This document shows positions 18,226-30,424 of a stretch of DNA of 64,000 nt, in pieces. Location: contig CAYOFQ010000001.1 of assembly GCA_964403585.1 (NCBI GenBank), positions 648,630 to 712,629 on the forward strand, in the 5' to 3' direction. The DNA comes from an uncultured Gammaproteobacteria bacterium (GTDB taxonomy: Bacteria; Patescibacteriota; Microgenomatia; JALYQM01). Made by a program: the position numbers and the translations under genes. The notes beneath the pieces are model-generated. The model was not told the origin of the DNA. It worked only from the letters and a program-made list of their open reading frames with translations, and did not search any database. Within the stretch, counting starts at the first letter, position 1; every line of letters starts with the position of its first letter.

Positions 18226-19809
18226 TCATGTTCCCGGAGCACAGCCACCTTTGCCGGCACCGGCAGGTCGCCCGGGGTTCTCAATCTTAATCGGCATTTG
18301 TAACACACCGGTATCGGTGCCACCTTTAAGGTCAACCGAACTGGTAACCATTGCCAGACAATGCCAGCCATTCGTAAATTGCGTTGAATCGAAGGTTACC
18401 GTTCCGGTGTAGGGACCGTTACCCTCATGTAGAATCTTTCCAAAATTATCAGCCGCAAACAACGCGTCCATATTCACGCTGTGATATCCGGTTGCTATTC
18501 CACCGGATCCCGGTTTCATTGCTGTTTTAAAAGTATACGTACCTGAAATTGGTCCGTAAGGAATAGGCGATAAGAACTGTGCGTTTTCATAGTTAGCTCC
18601 GGTAAACCAGCCACGTGCCTCCAGGAACGGCGGTGTGCGGTATTGTTTGCCATGACCGTGGAACCACGCCTGCCAACCGGTAGAGGCATTAAGCCGTTCA
18701 CCATTGGTAAAATCACTGAAGAACCGGATACGGATTTCTTCATACCCCGATAAATTTGAAGTTGGCACATCGATAGGCACCCACCAGGTACACGACGAAT
18801 TCATGTCGTTGCCGTCTTTGGTGCACTGTAACGGCGGATTAAACGTTTTTGCTATCAATTGCGTTCCACTTGGTCCTTTGCCGATATCCAATTTAGACAC
18901 TTTAGAGTTATTGCCTTTGTGCATCATCAAGCGTAAATCCAAATGCAGTTTTGAGTCATTAAAATCCTGGTCTTGAGGAAAACAGGTCGCCGTATGGGTA
19001 TGTCCGCCGATACCTTTAACCGGAAGTTGGGTATTGGTTTTAATTGAGGCTGTGTCCATCCACCAGGCCTGGGTTTCCAGAAAGATACGCTTTTCCGGAT
19101 ATCGGGAACAATCGGTAGTTCCTCCAACCGGTCCACCGGTTGGATCAGGTGATGGAGAAGGGCCGGCGGTTTGAGTCGGCGACGGTGTAGTCGTTGAACC
19201 GGGGTCAGGGACAAAAATAACAATATACATCGAGTATACTCCACCGGATATGTCGGATGCCGGTCCCATATCGAACGTTCCGGCATTAACGCGACGTTTG
19301 TAAATGTCATATAGTCCGATCAACCCCTGCTCATTTTTACGCAGCAGATATTGATTAACATTGGAACTGTCGTCATTTGTTTGCCGTGAGTACTGAGAGG
19401 TGACCCAGTTGGGGGCGGAAGATTGAAATATATGTCTGGTCGCAACAAACATCGTCCCGGGTTGTGTTACGGTAACTGACCAGTGCAAACTAGGATCGTC
19501 CTTTATCTCTGCATTCGGCGTCTGAATATAGGTGCCGCCTTCCATGGCCGGATCAATTTTGAAGAAGCTGTAACGGGAATCGGTACTGTAAATGGTTGAA
19601 TTCAATTGTAAACATTTCTTTGTAAAAGTCGTGCTTCCGTAGCTGGTCATACTGCTGACATCACTCGGGCATGCAGCTGCCTGAGTTGTATCGGCTTTGC
19701 GTAAATTCTTCAAGCTCGAAGAAACAACTACGGCTATCAGAAGCATAAACAGGCAGGTGACGATTATAAAGAATATATTAACGTCGGGGTTTTTTCTTCT
19801 AGGAGCCAT
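18226..19809 (-). CDS. Secreted/TM-anchored hypothetical protein; paralog of 37821-38789, with an extra C-terminal domain
   Basis: N-terminal signal anchor followed by about 200 aa that align clearly with ORF 37821-38789 (WSVTVTQPGTMFVATRHI...NWVTSQYSRQTNDDSSNVNQYLLRKNEQGLIGLYDIYKRR...YSMYIVIFVPDPG), then a T/P-rich linker and a roughly 300-aa C-terminal domain of unknown type. Confidence 0.75.
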   Translation of the reverse strand: MAPRRKNPDVNIFFIIVTCLFMLLIAVVVSSSLKNLRKADTTQAAACPSDVSSMTSYGSTTFTKKCLQLNSTIYSTDSRYSFFKIDPAMEGGTYIQTPNAEIKDDPSLHWSVTVTQPGTMFVATRHIFQSSAPNWVTSQYSRQTNDDSSNVNQYLLRKNEQGLIGLYDIYKRRVNAGTFDMGPASDISGGVYSMYIVIFVPDPGSTTTPSPTQTAGPSPSPDPTGGPVGGTTDCSRYPEKRIFLETQAWWMDTASIKTNTQLPVKGIGGHTHTATCFPQDQDFNDSKLHLDLRLMMHKGNNSKVSKLDIGKGPSGTQLIAKTFNPPLQCTKDGNDMNSSCTWWVPIDVPTSNLSGYEEIRIRFFSDFTNGERLNASTGWQAWFHGHGKQYRTPPFLEARGWFTGANYENAQFLSPIPYGPISGTYTFKTAMKPGSGGIATGYHSVNMDALFAADNFGKILHEGNGPYTGTVTFDSTQFTNGWHCLAMVTSSVDLKGGTDTGVLQMPIKIENPGRPAGAGKGGCAPGT

Positions 19810-19864
19810 AGCTTATTTAGCGTAAAGCAAAAAAGCAGTAATTTCAAGTGGTAGTGACAAAATG

Positions 19865-19938
19865 TAGCCCCGAGGGGAATCGAACCCCTGATCTTCAGGA
19901 TGAGAACCTGACGTCCTAGGCCGCTAGACGACGGGGCC
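19865..19938 (-). tRNA. tRNA-Glu (anticodon CTC)
   Basis: Reverse-complement cloverleaf: acceptor GGCCCCG/CGGGGCT, anticodon stem TCAGG/CCTGA with loop TTCTCAT, T-arm AGGGG-TTCGATT-CCCCT. No encoded CCA. Confidence 0.8.
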
Positions 19939-20284: not shown

Positions 20285-22798
20285 TCACTCATTGCTACCT
20301 ATTAACTGGAGTTCTTTCCACACCAGCTGGTGAGATTCTTTACCTGCCGGATTAATTGAAATTTGCTGCGTTAATTCTCTCCAGCGGGAGTGCATCTCCA
20401 GTGGATGCGCGTACTGTTCGGCATTGGCATCAGTCATCTCTTCCGTGTAATGTATAGTTCTGCGACCCGTCGATTCAATGAGAATATTTTGCTTCTCAAA
20501 CATGCGATATGTGTTTTGAAAATTAATTACCGGCTCAGTCAGATACGCATACTCTTTAATCAAATCCCACAACACATCATTCACCGCTTCGGAAGTTTCC
20601 ACTACCGGCAGTCCTAAATTTTTTGCTTCAAAGTATACAATCGGATAATCGCTCGAAGGATAACTTTGAGTCAGTGTTTGAACAATCTGTGCTATTTGAG
20701 CATCGGTTCCAGGTGTTTTTCTCAGCTTTAAAAGATTGGTACAAATCCGTTGAACTAATGACAACTGTCGGTTTGCAGCTGCAGTAACTAACGGATGGAA
20801 TGTTTCAGGATCCTGGTTTACCACAGCAGTTGAGGCTTCTTTTTGTCTTGCCGTTGATTTAGACGGCAGCGGGTTTGATGCCTGGAAAATTTCGTTGAGC
20901 GGCACCGCTACTGATTCCTGGTCAAACGATTTGCTGAGCAATTTATGCGAGAACCAGGTGTCAACAGGTGAAAGAAATCCGAACGGATTCATAAGTATCG
21001 AATCACCCGATAACGCCATCATTGTTGTCGCAACCGAAGATTCTTCAGGTAAAATTACCGTCAACTCGTCACAAAACTCGCGAACCAATGTCGCCATTCT
21101 CCAGATAACAGTGCTGTCCGCATCCTGAATAATTGGCAACAAGTAGAGCGATTTCTTTTTTCCTAACTTTCGCAAGTGGCTATAGAGATAGCGCATATCC
21201 TCCATGGATACATAGGTATTGGCCGCATAATACACGAGAACTTTTCCGTGCAGAGATTCTTCCAGGCGTTCAATCGATTCCTGTGTTCGCTCCCAGGCAA
21301 CCGGAGGTTTGCGCGGCGGAAGTGACCCGCTTTGATTTTGAGTCTTTGCTTGTGGACGTTCGGCACGTTGTTCAGGGGCTGGGAGGCGCTGCTCGCGTTC
21401 TTGCTGACGTTGGTCCCGGTCCGGCTGGCGTTGCTCCCGTTCAGGTCGTTGTTCACGCTCCGGCGGACGCTGTTCGCGGTCTGCTCGTTGTTCACGATCT
21501 GCCTGCCGAGGCGGACGTTCTGATTGAGGCATCTCTTTTGGTGCTTCCGGTGTCGTAATATCATTCTCAAAGCGGGGCTCTTCCTGCCGTGCTCGTGGCG
21601 GTTCAGTCTGTATTTTTGGCGCGGGGGGTGCCACCGTTTTTTGTTCAGCACGAGGCATCTGTTCACGCTGTTTAGGCTGCTCAGGTTGCCGTGCAGGTTG
21701 TTGTTGCGACTGCTGCTTTGGTGCTGGCTGTTCCGCCAGCTGGGGAGCTGCTTGAGCCTTCGACTCTTTTTTGGGAGCTGCTGCTACCGGCGGTGCTGGT
21801 GGTTTCGACTGCTGCTGTTGTTGTTTTGGTTGTTGAGGTACCTGCTCAGGCGGCCGCTGCTGCTGTTGCTGAGGGGCTTTTGGCTGTTGCGTCTGCTGCT
21901 TCGGCTGCGGGGGTTGCTGGGGCTGTCGTGCCGGTGCGGGTTGGGGAACCGGTGGCATTTGCTGTGCAGGTTGATTTTGATTAAACGCAGCTTGAAGCGG
22001 CGGAATTGCCGGAGGGCGGCCCGGTGCCTGACCAGGCTGCATCTGTGCATTAAGTGGCGGCAATGACGGTACGCGCTGCGGTTCAGTAGCCTGCGGCATG
22101 GATGGCATCGTTAATGGCGGTAGTACGGGTGATTTATCGGCGACAGTACCGGAAGGGTCATCAAACTGTAAACCGCTGCTCTTCAGCAGATCGTCCAGAC
22201 TCGGTAACTCAAAGGGCACATTTTGCGGATTGGCCTGCTGTCCCTGGTTACTGAAAGGAAGCGGCGGAATCTGACTCTGCTGCGGTACCGGGTTTTCAAC
22301 AGGGGGACGTCCAGGTGGTTGGTTAGGCATAGGCGCTTGACGCTGCGGAGCTGCAGGCTGAGGTGCCGGCATTGGGGCCGGTGCCTCCGGAGCCGGTGCA
22401 GTTCCGTTTGTATAACTTTCCCAGGCTAAATCAGTGATTCTTTTGTAAATCAGGTCAAAGGGCGCTTTTCGCATCTCTCCTTTAAGCCGCTGATAGCTGG
22501 TCATCGTTACCGTATTGTTGCCCATCGCGTCAACGATACTCAAGGTAACATCGGGCACATTGGGAGACGATCCTGAATCATGAACAATATTCGGCAGCTG
22601 AAAAAAACCGACTTCCCTGGCATATTGCAGGACTTCGATAACTTTCTGTCGCTCAATCTGCCGTTCGACGATATCTGTATCAGACTCAAAAATGAGCATT
22701 CGCCCATTGTCGTAAATTTCAACATCCCCGGCACGGGAGTTTGGCGGCAACATACCACCACTCATTTTTACTAGAATAGCTAGATTTGAAACAGGCAT
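20285..22798 (-). CDS. Large (837 aa) protein: N-terminal globular region, very long P/Q/A-rich disordered segment with REQR/DREQR repeats, and a C-terminal ClpP/SDH-like (serine peptidase fold) domain
   Basis: Long, clean ORF. Low-complexity PQ-rich core (…PQPAPARQPQQPPQPKQQTQQPKAPQQQQQRPP…) and tandem DREQRADREQRPPEREQRPEREQRQPDRDQRQQEREQR. C-terminal region KVLVYYAANTYV…LPEESSVATTMMALSGDSILMNPFGFLSPVD resembles the SDH/ClpP-class serine peptidase fold. Confidence 0.7.
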   Translation of the reverse strand: MPVSNLAILVKMSGGMLPPNSRAGDVEIYDNGRMLIFESDTDIVERQIERQKVIEVLQYAREVGFFQLPNIVHDSGSSPNVPDVTLSIVDAMGNNTVTMTSYQRLKGEMRKAPFDLIYKRITDLAWESYTNGTAPAPEAPAPMPAPQPAAPQRQAPMPNQPPGRPPVENPVPQQSQIPPLPFSNQGQQANPQNVPFELPSLDDLLKSSGLQFDDPSGTVADKSPVLPPLTMPSMPQATEPQRVPSLPPLNAQMQPGQAPGRPPAIPPLQAAFNQNQPAQQMPPVPQPAPARQPQQPPQPKQQTQQPKAPQQQQQRPPEQVPQQPKQQQQQSKPPAPPVAAAPKKESKAQAAPQLAEQPAPKQQSQQQPARQPEQPKQREQMPRAEQKTVAPPAPKIQTEPPRARQEEPRFENDITTPEAPKEMPQSERPPRQADREQRADREQRPPEREQRPEREQRQPDRDQRQQEREQRLPAPEQRAERPQAKTQNQSGSLPPRKPPVAWERTQESIERLEESLHGKVLVYYAANTYVSMEDMRYLYSHLRKLGKKKSLYLLPIIQDADSTVIWRMATLVREFCDELTVILPEESSVATTMMALSGDSILMNPFGFLSPVDTWFSHKLLSKSFDQESVAVPLNEIFQASNPLPSKSTARQKEASTAVVNQDPETFHPLVTAAANRQLSLVQRICTNLLKLRKTPGTDAQIAQIVQTLTQSYPSSDYPIVYFEAKNLGLPVVETSEAVNDVLWDLIKEYAYLTEPVINFQNTYRMFEKQNILIESTGRRTIHYTEEMTDANAEQYAHPLEMHSRWRELTQQISINPAGKESHQLVWKELQLIGSNE

Positions 22799-22834
22799 AT
22801 CTAAAGTTTATTAAAGTAGCAATACTCTTGTCAA

Positions 22835-22884: not shown

Positions 22885-22956
22885 GGGTCGGTAGCTCAAC
22901 GGTAGAGCAGCAGCCTTTTAAGCTGTTGGTTCTGGGTTCGAATCCCAGCCGACCCA
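22885..22956 (+). tRNA. tRNA-Lys (anticodon TTT)
   Basis: Acceptor GGGTCGG/CCGACCC, D-arm GCTC-AACGGTA-GAGC, anticodon stem GCAGC/GCTGT with loop CTTTTAA, T-arm CTGGG-TTCGAAT-CCCAG. No encoded CCA. Confidence 0.85.
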
Positions 22957-22996
22957 CATCATTGCTTTTATACAACCTCTTTGAAATACTATCTCC

Positions 22997-23620
22997 ATGA
23001 ATAAACTACTGATGGTGTTTTGTTTAGTCGTTATTAGTTTAACGGCCTGTACTCCTGTTAGCGAGACCGTGGTTACCCCTGCTCCCGTCACAGCATCTCC
23101 AGCCCCAACACTCGCCCGCACGGCACCACCCAAAAAATCAGGATACATTCAATATGTAAATGAGGAATTGAAATATGGTTTTAGTTATCCTCAAACAGAA
23201 CAGCTATCAAAGTGTGCCGACTCTCACTGTCTTTCGATTGATCGTATTGGGCTGGTTGTTGAATTTTTAAGCGCCGAAGAAATTTCAGGAAACGACCGGC
23301 TGGCCAGTCTAACCTACAGTGATCTGATGTGCGCCGCTTCGGGGCCGAATGCCTCGATTGATTGTAAGAATCAGTCAGCCGTAGACTTTACCAACGAACT
23401 GGGGTTTAAGGGATACAAAGTAACCCGTACTAAGGAAATTGTCGGAAAAATTTCCTCAGCGGGTATCTATACAGATAGTGTCTATGTTTATCTGTTACCG
23501 GAAGTTGTGAAAGGTCCGGGTCTAACCGACTATGCTGCAGTATTTTTTACGGTTACCCGACCGGATAAAGCCAACCTGAAGTCTCTGGAATCTATTGCCC
23601 AAACAGCCTTTACGTTGTAA
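22997..23620 (+). CDS. Putative lipoprotein (hypothetical)
   Basis: Lipobox-like signal MNKLLMVFCLVVISLTAC followed by a T/P/A-rich stretch and a domain of unknown type. Confidence 0.6.
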   Translation: MNKLLMVFCLVVISLTACTPVSETVVTPAPVTASPAPTLARTAPPKKSGYIQYVNEELKYGFSYPQTEQLSKCADSHCLSIDRIGLVVEFLSAEEISGNDRLASLTYSDLMCAASGPNASIDCKNQSAVDFTNELGFKGYKVTRTKEIVGKISSAGIYTDSVYVYLLPEVVKGPGLTDYAAVFFTVTRPDKANLKSLESIAQTAFTL

Positions 23621-23683: not shown

Positions 23684-24343
23684 ATGGTAATTAATAAAAG
23701 CAAAGTTATATCCTTGCCACGCGAATATCGCGATAACGAAGACCTTTTTGTTTGCCCGTGCCCTGTGTGCGTGGAGAGAATGTATTCAGACCAAGCCGAG
23801 AAGGCGCAGGTGGAACAAGCCAAAAATATCATTGAAGAAATTTTCCAAAACTCGGCGCTTAAAGTAAAAGACTTCCAGATTCAGGTGGCCTATGCTGACA
23901 CAATTCCAACTGCTCCGGCTAATAAGCCGCGTCCGGAGACTAGAGCTTCACGTGCCGCAATTAAAGCCGTCCTGGGATTAACCACCCGTTTTAACAAGAA
24001 ATACCGTCATCCACTGGTTTGCCAGTTAAATGCATTGGCTTTAGACACACAGACGGACATTCTCCATTACGAAGCCATGGTGGAATACGGTGATTTGGTT
24101 GAAAACCAATTATGGAAGCTGGAAGCAATTGCGACTCAGGTTACGCAAATTGCAGAGATCCTCAGCCAAATTGGTACCGAAGCTTTTCTCAGTCCCGAAA
24201 GAGTTGTTGCCCTGGATAAAAAAATTGAGGTTATCTCACGATCCAATAAAATTCAGCTTAAGAAACTTTTTATCAACGCACTGAAAATACCTGAATTTGA
24301 ACCGCATTGCACATTCGAAGATTTTCAACTACCCTATTATTAA
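23684..24343 (+). CDS. Hypothetical protein
   Basis: 219-aa ORF with no recognisable motif. TATATAAATG context suggests a -10-like box adjacent to the ATG. Confidence 0.5.
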   Translation: MVINKSKVISLPREYRDNEDLFVCPCPVCVERMYSDQAEKAQVEQAKNIIEEIFQNSALKVKDFQIQVAYADTIPTAPANKPRPETRASRAAIKAVLGLTTRFNKKYRHPLVCQLNALALDTQTDILHYEAMVEYGDLVENQLWKLEAIATQVTQIAEILSQIGTEAFLSPERVVALDKKIEVISRSNKIQLKKLFINALKIPEFEPHCTFEDFQLPYY

Positions 24344-24804
24344 TGAGACATCTAAAGACAGTCGTATCTTTCCTGCTCTTGGTGGTGGCAGTCGCTTCAT
24401 TTGGGGCAATAATGTATTCCCGCCGTGAAGTAATCGGCAAAAAATACCTACGCATCAATAACACTGATGTATTTGTCGAAGTAGTGGCTACACCGCAGGA
24501 CCGGGAGAAGGGGTTAAGCGGACATGCACCTCTGGCCCAAAACGAAGGGATGCTCTTTATTTTCGATGAGCCCAAACGCTGGTCGTTCTGGATGCAGGGA
24601 ATGACATTCGGGCTGGATTTTATCTGGATAAATGATAATAAAGTTATCGATCTGCATGAAAACGTCAAGCCTCCGATGCTCACCGATAATAACCCCGAAG
24701 TATTGAGCCCCCGGCTTGATGTTCGCTATGTTCTCGAAGTGAATGAAGGATGGATCAGCAAAAATAATGTAAAAATTGGTGACCTCGTAGAATTCCACAT
24801 CTAA
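24343..24804 (+). CDS. DUF192 (COG1430) family protein
   Basis: N-terminal TM helix plus the DUF192-like core (LSGHAPLAQNEGMLFIFDEPKRWSFWMQGMTFGLDFIWIND). ATG at 24343 overlaps the upstream stop (TAATG). The track start at 24307 is an alternative. Confidence 0.65.
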   Translation: MRHLKTVVSFLLLVVAVASFGAIMYSRREVIGKKYLRINNTDVFVEVVATPQDREKGLSGHAPLAQNEGMLFIFDEPKRWSFWMQGMTFGLDFIWINDNKVIDLHENVKPPMLTDNNPEVLSPRLDVRYVLEVNEGWISKNNVKIGDLVEFHI

Positions 24805-25044: not shown

Positions 25045-25100
25045 CCATTTACAGTCAATGGCATGTGCTCCTATAATAACTATACTTGGAGAGAGTAATC

Positions 25101-26762
25101 ATGTCTGAACTGCCCACAATCAAAGTAACGTATATCGTTGATACGCTTTTACCTGAAAAATGTCACGATCTCATTGCCATCCATGCTCTTTATGGCGAAG
25201 TTGATGATCAGGATGTCGGTTCATTTGCCGAAAGTCTGATCCTGAACCGCTGGACAAAAGAAGTTGTATCACGCGAAAAATATTCTCAATCCTCCCAGGT
25301 CATTACGCTTAATGAGCATAAGTATTCGGTACCTGTGTCACGATTTAGCCAGAGCCAAACCTTATTTCCTGAAAAAATACTTTCGGAAATACTTTCCGAG
25401 ACGGAAAAGATTCGTATGCATGACCCGCTCACTAAACAGGTGCTACTTATCGTTACGGGAGATAATGTCTTGCATAATGTTTCTATCCGGAAACAGAGCC
25501 ATCTGCCGATTATTCATTTTACTCGCAATACTAACCAGCCACAAAAAATTATCACCGTTCACCCCAACCATTCCGGGATAGCACACGGATTTTTCCATAA
25601 GATTTCGACAAAATCAGAACTTTCCCGGGTAAAGAGGGATACAATCATCGCAGCACCATATCGGATTCTCAAAGAGTACCGGGGCAAATGCAACGGGATA
25701 CTCATTCTAAAAGATCAAACACATTCGGGACCTTATACGATGCACTTCTCGGGCCCGCATCTGGTCGTGGAATCCGCAGATCTTAAAGACATTCCCGAAC
25801 GTACCTATATTTCGCTCAACTCATCCCGGGGTGAGATAGCCATTATTGGCAAAAACGCCCAACTGCGTTCGACTCAGCTGACAGTAACGCAGAAACGCTT
25901 AATCAGAAAAGTTGAAACGGAACAGGTAAAATTCTTCCGGGATCTTTCCGCCGGATCAAAAGGCGAGACACCTACCGTGTACGGGTATAGTTTACTTAAT
26001 CCCACCGAATTGGTCAGATCCGTGCTTGAGCGTCATCGGTCCGGAAGTTTTACGCAAGCACTGATCGATTATATAATGGGGGATTTAAGGCTAACCCCTC
26101 GTAAGCCGTTAGTATACCAGTCACTTTGTGTCAGTTTGGGAACCAAAAATGTATTTGGCAAACACGGTGGGCAGTATTTGCGGGAAAGTCCGGACTTCTT
26201 CCTTGAAGAGTTGGAAGCCCTGCACCAATTATTGTATGTCTATAATTTCTCCGATATAACCCTTACTATTCCGTTTGTAAGAACGGTAAAGGAGCTCGAA
26301 GATATTAAGAAAATAATTGCCAGGCATAAGCTGACGCGTTCGCATAAATTCAAGTTGTTTATTACTGTGCAGGTACCCGCGAACATTCTGCAGTTGAACG
26401 AATATCTCGATGCCGGTTTGGATGGCGTTATTATTGATCTGCAGTGTCTTACCGATCTTACCCTGGGAATTGATTCACATCTATTCAGGAAAGAGTACCG
26501 ACAGGCGGCCCACACATACGAGTTTATGGATGAGACATTTCGCGCTATGCGCAGTGGAGGTGTCTGGGAGATCGATGCGGAGCTGTTTAGACAAGTAAAA
26601 CTCGATGCTGCCATCAATCGAATTTTGGAACATACACGGGAAATCTGCCGCCGTCGTAAGACACCTGTTTATTTATATTTACCGGATACCTATGAAGAAG
26701 AAGTGGAGCAGGAGCTCCGTAAGCAAACTTTGCCTCATTCAGTAATTCCCGCTTATGCCTAA
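25101..26762 (+). CDS. PEP-utilizing enzyme family protein (Enzyme I / PEP synthase-like phosphohistidine + TIM-barrel domains), highly divergent
   Basis: The C-terminal roughly 300 aa align to the PEP-utilizing TIM-barrel (ITLTIPFVRTVKELEDIKKII...LFITVQVPANILQLNEYLDAGLDGVIIDLQCLTDLTLGIDSH; compare MIEVP...FFSIGTNDLTQ). The central segment DQTHSGPYTMHFSGPHLVVES...GEIAI resembles the mobile phosphohistidine domain (GGRTSHAAI...P.VVG...G.V). Several canonical catalytic positions appear substituted. ATG at 25101 has a GGAGAG SD; the track start at 25086 is TTG. Confidence 0.65.
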   Translation: MSELPTIKVTYIVDTLLPEKCHDLIAIHALYGEVDDQDVGSFAESLILNRWTKEVVSREKYSQSSQVITLNEHKYSVPVSRFSQSQTLFPEKILSEILSETEKIRMHDPLTKQVLLIVTGDNVLHNVSIRKQSHLPIIHFTRNTNQPQKIITVHPNHSGIAHGFFHKISTKSELSRVKRDTIIAAPYRILKEYRGKCNGILILKDQTHSGPYTMHFSGPHLVVESADLKDIPERTYISLNSSRGEIAIIGKNAQLRSTQLTVTQKRLIRKVETEQVKFFRDLSAGSKGETPTVYGYSLLNPTELVRSVLERHRSGSFTQALIDYIMGDLRLTPRKPLVYQSLCVSLGTKNVFGKHGGQYLRESPDFFLEELEALHQLLYVYNFSDITLTIPFVRTVKELEDIKKIIARHKLTRSHKFKLFITVQVPANILQLNEYLDAGLDGVIIDLQCLTDLTLGIDSHLFRKEYRQAAHTYEFMDETFRAMRSGGVWEIDAELFRQVKLDAAINRILEHTREICRRRKTPVYLYLPDTYEEEVEQELRKQTLPHSVIPAYA

Positions 26763-27894
26763 AATCGAAAAACTTACTGCTATAAAGATTTCGCACGACA
26801 ATACGTCTCTCCTTGGGATTCAGCTGAAGCTGGATAATGGTTTGGTAGTCCAGTCAAATTTTCCGGTGCAGGGTAATGACCCTACACATGATGTTACTAA
26901 GGCTATGACGGTTATCAATGACATAGTCGCGCAAATCGTCGAAGGACTTAATCCGCTGCGCCAAAAAGAACTTGATAAAATGATCACCGAATTAAGTGCA
27001 ATTCACGAACAGTCGGCACTACGGGCAAATATATCACTTGCTCTCTCTCTCACTATATTAAAAGCCGCCGCCGCACTTAATAATCTTGATCCGGTTACCT
27101 ATATACGTACAATATATGGTTTCGATCAAGGTAGAGAGCATCGGCCGATCCTGGTTTTTACGTGTATCAAAAATGAAGGAGGCACGGGAGCTTTTAAAGA
27201 GTTTTTCGTGATCCCTGCACGCAGTAAATCAACTTCGGAGTCATTGCTGATGTTCCGGGGTGTTGCTGCTGCATTAAAATCCGATACTCCGCTGATCACC
27301 ACTCACCATGAAATCATGAATACGGTGCAAATCGAATTATTGGAAAAACAGATACTCTGTCTGGGATTTTCATTGCACCATGATGTGTATCTCGGATTCA
27401 AGCCGGATCTCATCTATGACGAACAAAGAGGGTACCGTTGTACTGATATGCTGCAGGATGTCAGTGCCAACCAGATGGTTGAATATTACAAGGAACTCCA
27501 GACGTTATATTCACCATTAATTCAAGAAAATCTGTTTGCCTCTCATGACCTTATTTCGCTCGTAACACTCCATAAAGAGATTGGTGATCAAACAATACTC
27601 ACCGTGAGTTCCGAACGTGTCACCACGCCGGTTGAGTGCCGCAGGTATGCTGCTGCGCTGCCCACAGCGATGCTGAATTTAACGCATCAATCAGTTCCTT
27701 CGGTAACACAGTATATCGAGCTAATCGATGCCGCTAAAAAAGCTGATTGGAAGGTAATGATCGATACGAATGGCTGCAGTGATTATGGATTGTTATTCGC
27801 CCTCTCAGCTGCCGCTCAGGTGGACTTTATAAAAATGGATAGGTGTGACTTAGAAATAGAAAAGGAACTCTCATATGTTGGACAAAGCGATTAA
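26755..27894 (+). CDS. Enolase-family protein, divergent (probable pseudo-enolase lacking most catalytic residues)
   Basis: Clear enolase-specific similarity in the N-terminal and central regions (VTKAMTVINDIVAQIVEG...ANISLALSLTILKAAAALNNLDPVTYIRTIYG vs enolase VTKAVAAVNGPIAQALIG...GANAILAVSLANAKAAAA...PLYEHIAELNG, and ILVFTCIKNEGGTGAFKEFFVIPARSKSTSESLLMFRGVAAALK vs [30 protein letters not shown]...EVFHHLAKVLK). It is only 379 aa, the SGASTG loop is deleted, and the catalytic Glu/Lys/Asp positions appear replaced when compared by eye. Confidence 0.7.
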   Translation: MPKIEKLTAIKISHDNTSLLGIQLKLDNGLVVQSNFPVQGNDPTHDVTKAMTVINDIVAQIVEGLNPLRQKELDKMITELSAIHEQSALRANISLALSLTILKAAAALNNLDPVTYIRTIYGFDQGREHRPILVFTCIKNEGGTGAFKEFFVIPARSKSTSESLLMFRGVAAALKSDTPLITTHHEIMNTVQIELLEKQILCLGFSLHHDVYLGFKPDLIYDEQRGYRCTDMLQDVSANQMVEYYKELQTLYSPLIQENLFASHDLISLVTLHKEIGDQTILTVSSERVTTPVECRRYAAALPTAMLNLTHQSVPSVTQYIELIDAAKKADWKVMIDTNGCSDYGLLFALSAAAQVDFIKMDRCDLEIEKELSYVGQSD

Positions 27895-29806: not shown

Positions 29807-30424
29807 CTATTGATACTTACGGATCACACCAACAACTTTACCTTGAATTTGAACATCGGTTGCATAGATAGGTTGCATGGTACTGTTGGCCGGTTCAAGA
29901 CGAATACGGTTTGGCTCTTTGTAAAATCGTTTTAATGTAGCTAATCCGTTTTCAAGCAAAGCTACAACTATTTCACCGTTGCGGGCTGTCTCCTGACGCT
30001 CAATAATAACGAAATCGCCATCTAAAATCCCGTCTTCAATCATCGACTCGCCTTTAACTTGCAGTACATAAGTCGGCTTTTTACCTGAAATCATTCCTGA
30101 ACTGACTGTCATTGCTGCGTTCGGGTCGGTAAATGTAGCAATCGGCTGACCAGCGGCAATGTACCCGAGAATCGGTAACTCTACGCCTTCCAGCATATTG
30201 CCCATCTTTTTTTCCAGAACCTCAATCCCGCGCACCATACCTTCGTATTTCCTGATTAATTTTTTCTTCGTCAATGCCTGTAAATGTTCGTGAACAGTGG
30301 CCAACGACTTTACATTGATCGCATCGGCAATTTCCTGCAAGGTAGGAGAGTAGCCATTCTTCTGAATATATTGTGAAATAAAATCTAATATCTGACGCTG
30401 CTTTCGGTATACTATAACGGGCAT
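29807..30424 (-). CDS. lexA: LexA repressor (S24 peptidase)
   Basis: N-terminal winged HTH (ILDFISQYIQKNGYSPTLQEIADAINVKSLATVHEHLQALTKKKLI) and C-terminal S24 autoprotease domain with GESM Ser and KR Lys. Confidence 0.9.
   Translation of the reverse strand: MPVIVYRKQRQILDFISQYIQKNGYSPTLQEIADAINVKSLATVHEHLQALTKKKLIRKYEGMVRGIEVLEKKMGNMLEGVELPILGYIAAGQPIATFTDPNAAMTVSSGMISGKKPTYVLQVKGESMIEDGILDGDFVIIERQETARNGEIVVALLENGLATLKRFYKEPNRIRLEPANSTMQPIYATDVQIQGKVVGVIRKYQ

What the first reader, a model, noticed from the sequence alone, without database searches (positions are those of the whole stretch)
20285..22798. 837-aa protein with an extreme P/Q-rich disordered core, tandem (D/E)REQR repeats and a C-terminal ClpP/SDH-like peptidase-fold domain
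The central roughly 400 aa are almost purely P/Q/A/K low-complexity, followed by about 10 tandem REQR-type pentapeptide repeats. These are visible in the DNA as repeated cgttgttcacg/ctgttcgcg units around 21300-21560. The C-terminal roughly 330 aa contain a motif (ESSVATTMMALSGDSILMNPFGFLSPVD) typical of the serine-dehydrogenase-proteinase/ClpP crotonase-fold family. A giant disordered linker fused to a self-compartmentalising peptidase-like domain is unusual. It is also locally GC-rich, and the opposite strand produces many spurious ORFs.
Basis: partly seen in the sequence, partly recalled or inferred. Interest (0 to 1): 0.65.

Follow-up and report, generated by a model that had tools for sequence, protein, structure and literature searches.

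The report
Dead ClpP-fold protease on disordered tether
This is a real, conserved gene of a small, poorly sampled bacterial lineage whose named relatives are Patescibacteria, encoding an orphan N-terminal domain, a long proline/glutamine-rich disordered stretch with regularly spaced short motifs, and a ClpP/SDH-type protease domain that has lost its catalytic residues, so it is probably a scaffold, not an enzyme.

Summary
Seven further full-length relatives (759-818 aa) have the same three-part plan, so it is one gene. It is not a frameshift or an assembly artefact.

The C-terminal ~340 aa are homologous to SDH-type ClpP-fold proteinases (PF01972). An AlphaFold model of this part matches SDH, ClpP and SppA structures. 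All eight family members lack three canonical catalytic positions:
- Nucleophile Ser is V, M or I.
- The family His is S, A, T or E.
- The oxyanion Gly-Gly is lost.
This makes it a pseudoprotease by the canonical positions. A neighbouring Ser/Thr (588) and an invariant His618 leave non-canonical catalysis open.

- A highly conserved orphan N-terminal domain of 129 aa. Only 7 relatives were found among 1.84 billion representative proteins. Its predicted fold resembles Mago nashi only weakly.
- Conserved motifs inside the "low-complexity" core: LPSL(D/N)(D/E)LLK, followed by LPPL-type motifs (two to four per member) about 19 residues apart.

The REQR repeats are six strict copies and occur only in this genome. 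The local GC excess comes from amino-acid composition, because GC3 is unchanged.

The most likely function, which is inferred, is a cytoplasmic multivalent scaffold or tether. It is a new variant of a known kind and of moderate interest.

The parts
20285..22798 (-). Whole gene, 837 aa plus stop codon. Single ORF.
   Evidence: Same architecture in 7 other full-length relatives.
22412..22798 (-). N-terminal orphan domain, aa 1-129. Predicted order is four beta strands, a helix, two beta strands, a helix. It is the best-conserved part of the protein.
   Evidence: Mean pairwise identity 0.70 and 50 invariant columns. Only 7 true relatives among 1.84e9 representative proteins. No significant Pfam match. 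AF2 pLDDT 74.5, and the top 9 PDB Foldseek hits are all Mago nashi at TM about 0.55.
21308..22411 (-). P/Q-rich disordered linker, aa 130-497 (P 23%, Q 20%, A 11%). The proximal part carries the motifs, the middle is Q/P/K-rich and the distal part is R/E/Q/P-rich.
   Evidence: Mean pairwise identity is 0.32. Length is 304-368 aa in all members.
22160..22213 (-). Conserved short motif FELPSLDDLLKSSGLQFD, aa 196-213. Family core is LPSL[DN][DE]LLK.
   Evidence: The residues LPSL..LLK are invariant in all 8 members.
21995..22123 (-). Array of three (L/I)PPL motifs at aa 226, 246 and 265, spaced about 19-20 aa. A further IPPL lies at aa 177 (DNA 22259-22270).
   Evidence: 4-6 hydrophobic-P-[PSTA]-hydrophobic motifs in every member, against 0.10-0.25 expected. 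None of 5000 shuffles reached the observed count in any member. The motifs are aligned across the family.
21386..21499 (-). Six tandem [DE]R[DE]QR units, aa 434-471, private to this genome.
   Evidence: no strict copy in any of the 7 relatives. DNA copies are 64-78% identical.
20285..21307 (-). C-terminal SDH-type ClpP-fold domain, aa 498-837, catalytically degenerate, plus stop codon.
21032..21034 (-). Val589, at the position of the family's nucleophile Ser.
   Evidence: Ser is present in all 14 other sequences of alignment A1. The 8 members have V/M/M/V/I/V/V/M. The spacing from the GG motif agrees with ClpP.
21119..21124 (-). Asp559-Ala560, at the position of the oxyanion-hole Gly-Gly (family LHSYGG; ClpP INSPGG).
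20651..20653 (-). Ser716, at the position of the family's near-invariant His (SHGYPI).
   Evidence: The 8 members have S/A/A/T/S/E/A/S.
20960..20962 (-). Asp613, the one canonical family residue that is retained. It is D or E in all 8 members.
22805..22834 (-). Promoter-like site TTGACA-18 nt-TAAACT. It ends 7 nt before the ATG, and no Shine-Dalgarno sequence is visible, so the mRNA may be leaderless.
   Evidence: This is a consensus match only.
23684..24804 (+). Conserved divergent neighbours: a 219-aa Cys-motif orphan protein (23684-24343) and a DUF192 protein (24307-24804). They head a string that continues with a PEP-utiliser-like gene, an enolase-like gene, iPGM and LexA.
   Evidence: The 219-aa gene has a match in all five related loci, and the DUF192 gene in four (no match in L005).

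Best explanation
The gene encodes a lineage-specific cytoplasmic protein with three parts. The parts are an orphan N-terminal alpha/beta domain, a disordered P/Q-rich tether of about 370 aa, and a C-terminal SDH-type ClpP-fold domain.

Shown here:
- It is one gene, conserved in a small clade whose closest named relatives are Patescibacteria.
- The C-terminal domain descends from SDH-type Clp-fold proteinases. It has lost the nucleophile Ser, the family His and the oxyanion Gly-Gly in every member, yet it stays under constraint (mean pairwise identity 51%).
- The tether is variable in sequence but constant in length class and composition. In every member it carries an LPSL(D/N)(D/E)LLK motif followed by LPPL-type motifs (two to four per member) about 19 residues apart.
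- There is no signal peptide and no membrane segment.

Inferred:
- The protein is a non-catalytic scaffold or tether.
- The dead protease domain supplies self-assembly (ClpP and SppA relatives form rings) and/or a peptide-binding groove.
- The tether is a flexible spacer that offers several copies of a docking motif.
- The N-terminal domain is the specific partner-binding head.
- Several tethers projecting from one oligomer would make a multivalent hub, similar in design to PopZ.
- The REQR repeat is a recent, private expansion of the charged part of the tether and has no family-wide role.
For: Single gene and conserved plan. The eight members are 759-837 aa, with an N-domain of 128-129 aa, a linker of 304-368 aa and a C-domain of 319-340 aa.

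Homology and fold of the C-domain:
- Sequence matches.
- All 26 database hits carry PF01972.
- The AF2 model has pLDDT 76.7.
- It matches ClpP and SppA in the PDB at probability 1.0.
- It matches BFVD 'serine dehydrogenase proteinase' models at E 1e-9.

Loss of catalytic positions:
- Alignment A1.
- Family columns.
- The GG motif maps onto ClpP INSPGG by hhalign. The GG-to-Ser spacing is 29 residues, against 28 in ClpP.

Constraint: mean pairwise identity is 0.70 for the N-domain, 0.32 for the linker and 0.51 for the C-domain.

Motifs: 4-6 LPPL-type motifs per member, against 0.1-0.25 expected, with none of 5000 shuffles reaching the observed count. Spacing is 18-20 aa.

Cytoplasmic location: the highest 19-residue Kyte-Doolittle hydropathy is 0.98.

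Core chromosomal gene: the 219-aa neighbour is found in all five related loci and the rest of the string in most of them. The gene is absent from viral contigs. No PADLOC hit.

Lineage.
Against: - No experiment or partner is known, so the scaffold role rests on architecture alone.
- Oligomerisation of the C-domain was not tested.
- A Ser/Thr is conserved one residue before the lost nucleophile (S/T/T/S/S/S/S/S), and His618 is invariant. Non-canonical catalysis is therefore not excluded.
- The N-domain fold assignment rests on a model of moderate confidence. Only one of five models exceeds pLDDT 65. It has no sequence support.
- Gene neighbourhood gives no functional clue, because the conserved neighbours are orphans or glycolytic genes.
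Confidence: 0.5

Rival explanations
1. It is still an active protease that uses a shifted or non-canonical active site. For example, Ser/Thr588 could be the nucleophile, with invariant His618 and Asp/Glu613. The N-domain and the tether would then recruit substrates.
For: Position 588 is S or T in all 8 members. His618 is invariant and residue 613 is D or E. The overall fold is retained.
Against: - The helix that carries the nucleophile aligns without gaps to 14 active-type relatives, so residue 588 is out of register.
- Two members have Thr at 588.
- The oxyanion Gly-Gly is lost.
- The family's own near-invariant His is replaced by four different residues.
- A conserved S/T at that place is equally well explained as a helix N-cap (inference).
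Confidence: 0.12
2. It is an exported or surface-exposed factor of an episymbiotic bacterium. Its proline-rich motifs would engage host-cell proteins, as in proline-rich effectors such as ActA.
For: The closest named relatives of the lineage are Patescibacteria, many of which live attached to host cells (general knowledge). The protein has repeated proline-containing motifs and a long extended linker.
Against: - No signal peptide, lipobox or membrane segment.
- No secretion-system genes next to it in the window or in the related loci.
- The neighbourhood is housekeeping genes.
Confidence: 0.1
3. It is an artefact. Two genes (an N-domain gene and an SDH-like gene) would have been fused by a frameshift, misassembly or repeat collapse across a low-complexity stretch, or the P/Q region would not be coding.
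For: Low-complexity, GC-rich DNA with shadow ORFs in several frames.
Against: - Eight independent assemblies from different samples give one uninterrupted ORF with the same three parts.
- Conserved in-frame motifs lie inside the linker.
- GC3 of the linker equals that of the folded domains.
- The DNA repeat copies are only 64-78% identical, so collapse is unlikely.
Confidence: 0.02

Closest known systems
SDH family Clp-fold serine proteinases (Pfam PF01972 SDH_protease, NCBIfam NF047768; formerly DUF114, 'serine dehydrogenase proteinase')
   Same: - The C-terminal 340 aa are homologous at 22-30% identity over about 70-80% of the domain.
- The predicted fold is the same.
- Shared motifs are IERLE..KVLVY, LREFCDE, the ..D..LM strand and P(I/V)D.
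- The C-terminal beta-rich extension matches the long (337-352 aa) family members.
   Different: - The nucleophile Ser, the family His and the Gly-Gly are all replaced.
- Scores are below both curated cut-offs.
- It is fused to a 500-aa N-terminal extension, whereas the 26 relatives found are 251-363 aa proteins.
- No paper on the family's biochemistry was found in the library searched.
ClpR, the catalytically inactive ClpP paralogue of cyanobacteria and plastids (general knowledge)
   Same: A ClpP-fold protein that has lost catalytic residues and is kept for a structural role.
   Different: - ClpR is a close ClpP paralogue that assembles with ClpP into rings.
- This protein belongs to the distant SDH branch and carries a long tether and a second domain.
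- No partner protease is known for it.
Bacterial 'folded head - proline-rich linker - folded or oligomerising tail' proteins such as ZipA and PopZ (general knowledge)
   Same: Two functional ends joined by a long P/Q-rich or P/E-rich disordered spacer. PopZ joins a client-binding N-terminus to a C-terminal oligomerisation domain to make a multivalent hub.
   Different: - No sequence relationship.
- No membrane anchor, unlike ZipA.
- The domains at both ends are different.
- This linker carries a periodic LPPL motif array, which as far as I recall (not checked) has not been described for those proteins.
Mago nashi (exon junction complex subunit)
   Same: The predicted N-domain has six strands and two long helices. 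Its nine best PDB matches are all Mago (Foldseek probability 0.98-1.0, TM 0.50-0.57, about 135 aligned columns).
   Different: - No sequence similarity (hhalign probability 0.3%; no Pfam or PDB sequence hit).
- E-values are only 2e-3 to 5e-2.
- The model is of moderate confidence.
- This is a lead, not an assignment.

Membership tests
SDH family Clp-fold serine proteinase (PF01972 / NF047768) | Score at or above the curated family cut-off | tested here: not met
   PF01972 scores 26.0 bits against a gathering score of 31.3. NF047768 scores 32.9 bits against a cut-off of 250.
SDH family Clp-fold serine proteinase (PF01972 / NF047768) | Detectable homology to family members | tested here: met
   26 hits at E 2e-20 to 4e-10, all carrying PF01972. 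PHROG 11747 at E 7e-18.
SDH family Clp-fold serine proteinase (PF01972 / NF047768) | ClpP/crotonase-like fold | tested here: met
   The AF2 model has pLDDT 76.7. It matches ClpP and SppA in the PDB at probability 1.0 and E about 5e-4. It matches viral 'serine dehydrogenase proteinase' models at E 1e-9.
SDH family Clp-fold serine proteinase (PF01972 / NF047768) | Nucleophile Ser (family motif A-x-S-x-x-[STA]) | tested here: not met
   Val589 in this protein, and V, M or I in all 8 members. Ser is present in all 14 active-type sequences aligned.
SDH family Clp-fold serine proteinase (PF01972 / NF047768) | Oxyanion-hole Gly-Gly (LxSxGG, equivalent to ClpP INSPGG) | tested here: not met
   Asp559-Ala560 in this protein. 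No member keeps both Gly residues.
SDH family Clp-fold serine proteinase (PF01972 / NF047768) | Near-invariant His (SHGYPI) | tested here: not met
   Ser716 in this protein, and S, A, T or E across the family.
SDH family Clp-fold serine proteinase (PF01972 / NF047768) | Invariant Asp (P-I-D-P) | tested here: met
   Asp613 in this protein, and D or E in all 8 members.
SDH family Clp-fold serine proteinase (PF01972 / NF047768) | Proteolytic activity | not testable with these tools
   This needs biochemistry.
ClpP (peptidase S14) | Ser-His-Asp triad, with His about 25 residues after Ser | tested here: not met
   No Ser at the nucleophile position. The position 24 residues after it is Asp613, as in the SDH family and not as in ClpP.
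ClpP (peptidase S14) | Heptameric or tetradecameric barrel | not testable with these tools
   No multimer prediction was available.
Mago nashi (PF02792) | Sequence match to the family | tested here: not met
   No Pfam hit even at E up to 10. hhalign probability 0.3%. Mago is not among the PDB sequence hits.
Mago nashi (PF02792) | Six-stranded sheet backed by two long helices | tested here: inconclusive
   The top 9 Foldseek PDB hits are all Mago at TM 0.50-0.57, but E is 2e-3 to 5e-2 and model pLDDT is 74.5.
ZipA-type membrane tether | N-terminal transmembrane anchor | tested here: not met
   The highest 19-residue hydropathy is 0.98, and it lies inside the C-domain.

The most novel reading that the evidence does not exclude
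The family is a previously undescribed kind of bacterial hub protein. A ring of dead SDH/ClpP-fold protease domains would project long P/Q tethers. The periodic LPPL motifs would dock as uncleavable pseudo-substrates into the degenerate active-site grooves of neighbouring rings, or onto an unknown partner. This would build a condensate or lattice that displays a Mago-like binding domain. It would also be a bacterial example of the Mago fold; none is known to me, and this was not checked.
Probability: 0.12. Interest if true: 0.7.

Novelty: new variant of a known kind. Interest (0 to 1): 0.42.

Why it matters
- Patescibacteria-like lineages are full of unannotated proteins. This one is conserved across all eight full-length members and their loci, and it sits among housekeeping genes, so it probably does something basic for these cells.
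- It is a clean example of a protease fold turned into a non-enzyme and fused to a long disordered tether with a periodic motif array. That is a testable design for multivalent assembly in bacteria.
- In practice it warns annotators not to call this protein a 'Clp protease' or 'serine proteinase' from the weak PF01972 match.

Tried and rejected
- Defence-system membership: no PADLOC hit.
- Phage origin: PHROG 11747 matches, but its function is unknown. The N-domain is absent from IMG/VR. The gene sits in conserved chromosomal synteny.
- Solved relatives by sequence: none for either domain.
- Sequence link of the N-domain to Mago nashi: none. The weak DUF6438 match (best E 0.017, 2 of 7 members) is not significant.
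- Literature on the SDH/DUF114 family or DUF6438: nothing useful.
- Function by neighbourhood: the 219-aa, 207-aa and 527-aa neighbours have no Pfam or NCBIfam match. The contexts of two active-type SDH relatives are uninformative.
- Foreign-DNA explanation of the GC-rich patch: rejected because GC3 is unchanged.
- Single-alpha-helix (E/R/K) reading of the REQR repeat: rejected on inspection, because a proline falls in most repeat units and the repeat is absent from all relatives.
- The word-index search missed known family members, so family size rests on the exhaustive search and the contig scans.
Full report
**1. The observation**

The window holds an ATG-initiated ORF at 20285..22798 on the minus strand, 837 aa long. 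tRNA-Glu(ctc) lies downstream at 19864-19938. A divergent tRNA-Lys(ttt) lies upstream at 22885-22957.

- **Disordered core.** Residues 130-497 are P 23%, Q 20%, A 11%, R 8%, E 7% and K 4%.
- **Repeats.** Six strict [DE]R[DE]QR units lie at aa 434-471, which is DNA 21386-21499, spaced 6-7 residues.
- **DNA-level repeats.** They are degenerate. TRF reports a 39-nt period x2.3 with 78% matches. The repeat finder reports four copies of 39-42 nt with 64-73% identity.
- **GC content.** It rises to 0.52-0.58 over 21.0-22.5 kb, against about 0.44 around it. The excess is confined to codon positions 1 and 2 (0.80 and 0.51, against about 0.52 and 0.37). GC3 is 0.46, against 0.44-0.46 in the folded domains. 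This is an effect of Pro, Gln, Ala, Arg and Glu codons, not of foreign DNA.
- **Shadow ORFs.** Several overlap the region.

The repeat count is six strict copies, not about ten. The unit is 6-7 aa, not 5. The core is not 'almost purely' low complexity.

**2. One gene, and a family**

A scan of GTDB species genomes with the C-terminal 344 aa found two loci at 67-68% identity (L001, L002). Each holds one ORF with the same plan.

An exhaustive phmmer search with the N-terminal 132 aa against 1.84 billion representative proteins found only 7 true relatives. Five are full-length at 759-818 aa and two are fragments. A scan of JGI metagenomes added one more locus (L004).

That gives eight full-length members. 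Each has an N-domain of 128-129 aa, a linker of 304-368 aa and a C-domain of 319-340 aa. Eight independent assemblies with one uninterrupted ORF rule out a frameshift or a chimaera.

Every database record of these proteins that carries a name calls it 'hypothetical protein'. The exact protein of the window is not on record.

**3. Where it lives**

The window is an ordinary bacterial chromosome. It carries GatA/GatB, DnaE, RNase HII, TypA, iPGM, LexA, UvrABC, IMPDH/GMP reductase and a MiaB-like enzyme.

TypA has a tight group of about 15 unnamed relatives at 74% identity or more. These include the contigs that carry L001, L003 and P0032. Identity then drops to 68% or less. Most named hits at 62-64% are 'Patescibacteria group', Candidatus Beckwithbacteria and candidate division WWE3, with single hits labelled Vitreimonas (67%) and Ktedonobacter (62%). 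One family fragment comes from a MAG labelled Patescibacteria group. The label 'Gammaproteobacteria' on L001 is probably wrong.

The gene is divergently transcribed from a conserved gene string. The string runs: a 219-aa Cys-motif orphan, DUF192, a PEP-utiliser-like gene, an enolase-like gene, iPGM and LexA. The 219-aa gene has a match in all five related loci, and the other genes in most of them.

The N-domain is absent from IMG/VR viral contigs, and nothing matches PADLOC. It is therefore a core chromosomal gene of a small, poorly sampled clade.

**4. The C-terminal domain**

The sequence evidence for homology is:
- Pfam PF01972 (SDH_protease), E 5.8e-6, 26 bits, below the gathering score of 31.3.
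- NCBIfam NF047768, 32.9 bits against a cut-off of 250.
- PHROG 11747 (function unknown), E 7e-18.
- All 26 database hits (22-30% identity, 251-363 aa) carry PF01972.

The structural evidence agrees:
- An AlphaFold model built on that alignment has pLDDT 76.7.
- Foldseek places it with ClpP and SppA in the PDB at probability 1.0.
- Its best matches are giant-virus 'serine dehydrogenase proteinase' models, at E 1e-9.

The catalytic apparatus, however, is gone.

In the alignment with 14 active-type relatives, five positions are conserved in the others (four near-invariant, the Asp invariant). In this protein they read as follows:

| Family position | Family motif | Residue here |
|---|---|---|
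| Oxyanion Gly-Gly | LHSYGG | Asp559-Ala560 |
| Nucleophile Ser | A-K-S-A-A-S | Val589 |
| Asp | P-I-D-P | Asp613 (kept) |
| Ser-His | SHGYPI | Ser715-Ser716 |

hhalign maps the family's 'IDLxLHSxGG' onto ClpP 'IYLYINSPGG'. The Gly-Gly to Ser spacing is 29 residues, against 28 in ClpP. The region aligns without gaps.

Across the eight family members the same positions read:
- Nucleophile position: V/M/M/V/I/V/V/M.
- His position: S/A/A/T/S/E/A/S.
- Gly-Gly: never intact.
- Asp position: D/D/D/E/E/E/E/E.

The domain is nevertheless conserved, with mean pairwise identity 0.51. It is a maintained pseudoprotease.

There is one caveat. Residue 588, one before the lost nucleophile, is Ser or Thr in all members, and His618 is invariant. 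I read the Ser/Thr as a helix N-cap, which is inference. A non-canonical active site cannot be excluded without a structure or an assay.

**5. The N-terminal domain**

This is the most conserved part. Mean pairwise identity is 0.70, and 50 of 132 columns are invariant in seven sequences. It has no significant match in Pfam, NCBIfam or the PDB by sequence.

An AlphaFold model has pLDDT 74.5 for the best model, with the other four at 45-64. It shows four strands, a helix, two strands and a long helix.

Its nine best PDB matches by Foldseek are all Mago nashi/Magoh. TM is 0.50-0.57 over about 135 columns, E is 2e-3 to 5e-2 and the rank 10 hit has probability 0.23. There is no sequence support. 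I treat this as a lead. If the fold is Mago-like, it fits a protein-binding platform.

**6. The linker is not featureless**

The eight-member alignment shows an invariant core, LPSL(D/N)(D/E)LLK, which is aa 198-206 in this protein. It is followed by LPPL-type motifs at a regular spacing of 18-20 residues, two to four per member. In this protein they start at aa 226, 246 and 265. In L003 they start at 211, 230, 249 and 268.

Each member has 4-6 motifs of the form hydrophobic-P-[PSTA]-hydrophobic, against 0.10-0.25 expected from composition. None of 5000 shuffles reached the observed count in any member.

The rest of the linker drifts freely (identity 0.32) but keeps its length class and composition. 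The REQR array has no strict copy in any relative. It is a private expansion within a generally R/E/Q/P-rich distal segment.

**7. How it most likely works**

Shown here:
- It is cytoplasmic. There is no signal peptide or membrane segment, and the highest 19-residue hydropathy is 0.98.
- It has two constrained folded ends joined by a long disordered spacer that carries a periodic motif array.
- The canonical protease residues are lost.

Inferred:
- It is a non-catalytic scaffold or tether.
- The dead ClpP-fold domain gives self-assembly and/or a peptide-binding groove. ClpP and SppA relatives form rings, and SppA can hold peptides in its active sites (the title of PDB 4kwb).
- The LPPL array gives multivalent docking.
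- The N-domain binds a specific partner.

The design is the one known from hub proteins such as PopZ, with no homology to them. I put about 0.5 on this reading as a whole. The anatomical part of it is far more certain, at about 0.85-0.9.

Rivals are a non-canonical active protease (0.12), an exported host-interaction factor (0.10) and an artefact (0.02).

**8. Comparison with what is known, and novelty**

The protein is homologous to the SDH Clp-fold proteinase family. It fails that family's defining catalytic features and both curated thresholds, so it should not be filed as a member or annotated as a proteinase.

It resembles ClpR in being an inactivated ClpP-fold protein. It resembles ZipA and PopZ in its head-linker-tail design.

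The N-domain is an orphan family. The exact combination, together with the periodic LPPL array, was not found described in the papers searched.

I rate it a new variant of a known kind, of moderate interest. The function remains inferred.

Noticed in passing
window 29807-30424 (-); L001 42-473, L002 66-371, L003 1503-2138: The LexA-like protein is 95-99% identical between the window and three related genomes. Neighbouring housekeeping proteins are much more diverged: TypA 77% in L003, iPGM 59-83%, and the enolase-like protein 27-46%. LexA is not usually the slowest-evolving gene, so this is unexplained.
   Followed up: no
L001 9311-10840 (-), L002 9299-10858 (-); window 19864-19938: In both close relatives a large serine recombinase lies directly downstream of the gene. 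The last 18 residues of the two ORFs are identical (SSPEGNRTPDLQDENLAS), so the ORF probably runs into a tRNA gene used as an integration site. The window has tRNA-Glu(ctc) at that position and no recombinase.
   Followed up: no
window 18226-19809 (-): A 527-aa orphan protein with an N-terminal membrane anchor and a Thr/Pro/Ser-rich linker (TTTPSPTQTAGPSPSPDPTGGP). It has no Pfam or NCBIfam match and is absent from the related loci.
   Followed up: partly
window 22885-23620: tRNA-Lys(ttt) and a 207-aa lipoprotein-like ORF (MNKLLMVFCLVVISLTAC...) lie between the gene and its syntenic 219-aa partner. Neither has a counterpart in the related loci, which suggests a local insertion.
   Followed up: partly
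window 23684-24343 (+): A 219-aa orphan protein with a CPCPVCVE motif. A match was found in all five related loci, and where the placement was read (L001, L002, L003) it lies divergent from the gene. It has no family match in Pfam or NCBIfam. It is a candidate functional partner.
   Followed up: partly
window 25086-27894 (+): The 558-aa PEP-utiliser-like protein matches Pfam PF02896 at 22.6 bits, just under the 22.8 cut-off, and PEP synthase models at only 51-54 bits. The 379-aa enolase-like protein scores 68 bits against the TIGR01060 cut-off of 300. Both are highly divergent versions of glycolytic enzymes, and they sit next to a normal iPGM.
   Followed up: no
window 22805-22834 (-): A promoter-like TTGACA-18 nt-TAAACT ends 7 nt before the ATG of the gene, with no visible Shine-Dalgarno sequence. 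The mRNA may be leaderless. This is a consensus match only.
   Followed up: no
tool behaviour: The word-index protein search did not return family members that are in its own collection, for example P0035 at 91% identity in the N-domain. Long low-complexity proteins may be under-indexed, so counts of 'no homologues' from that tool should be treated with care.
   Followed up: partly
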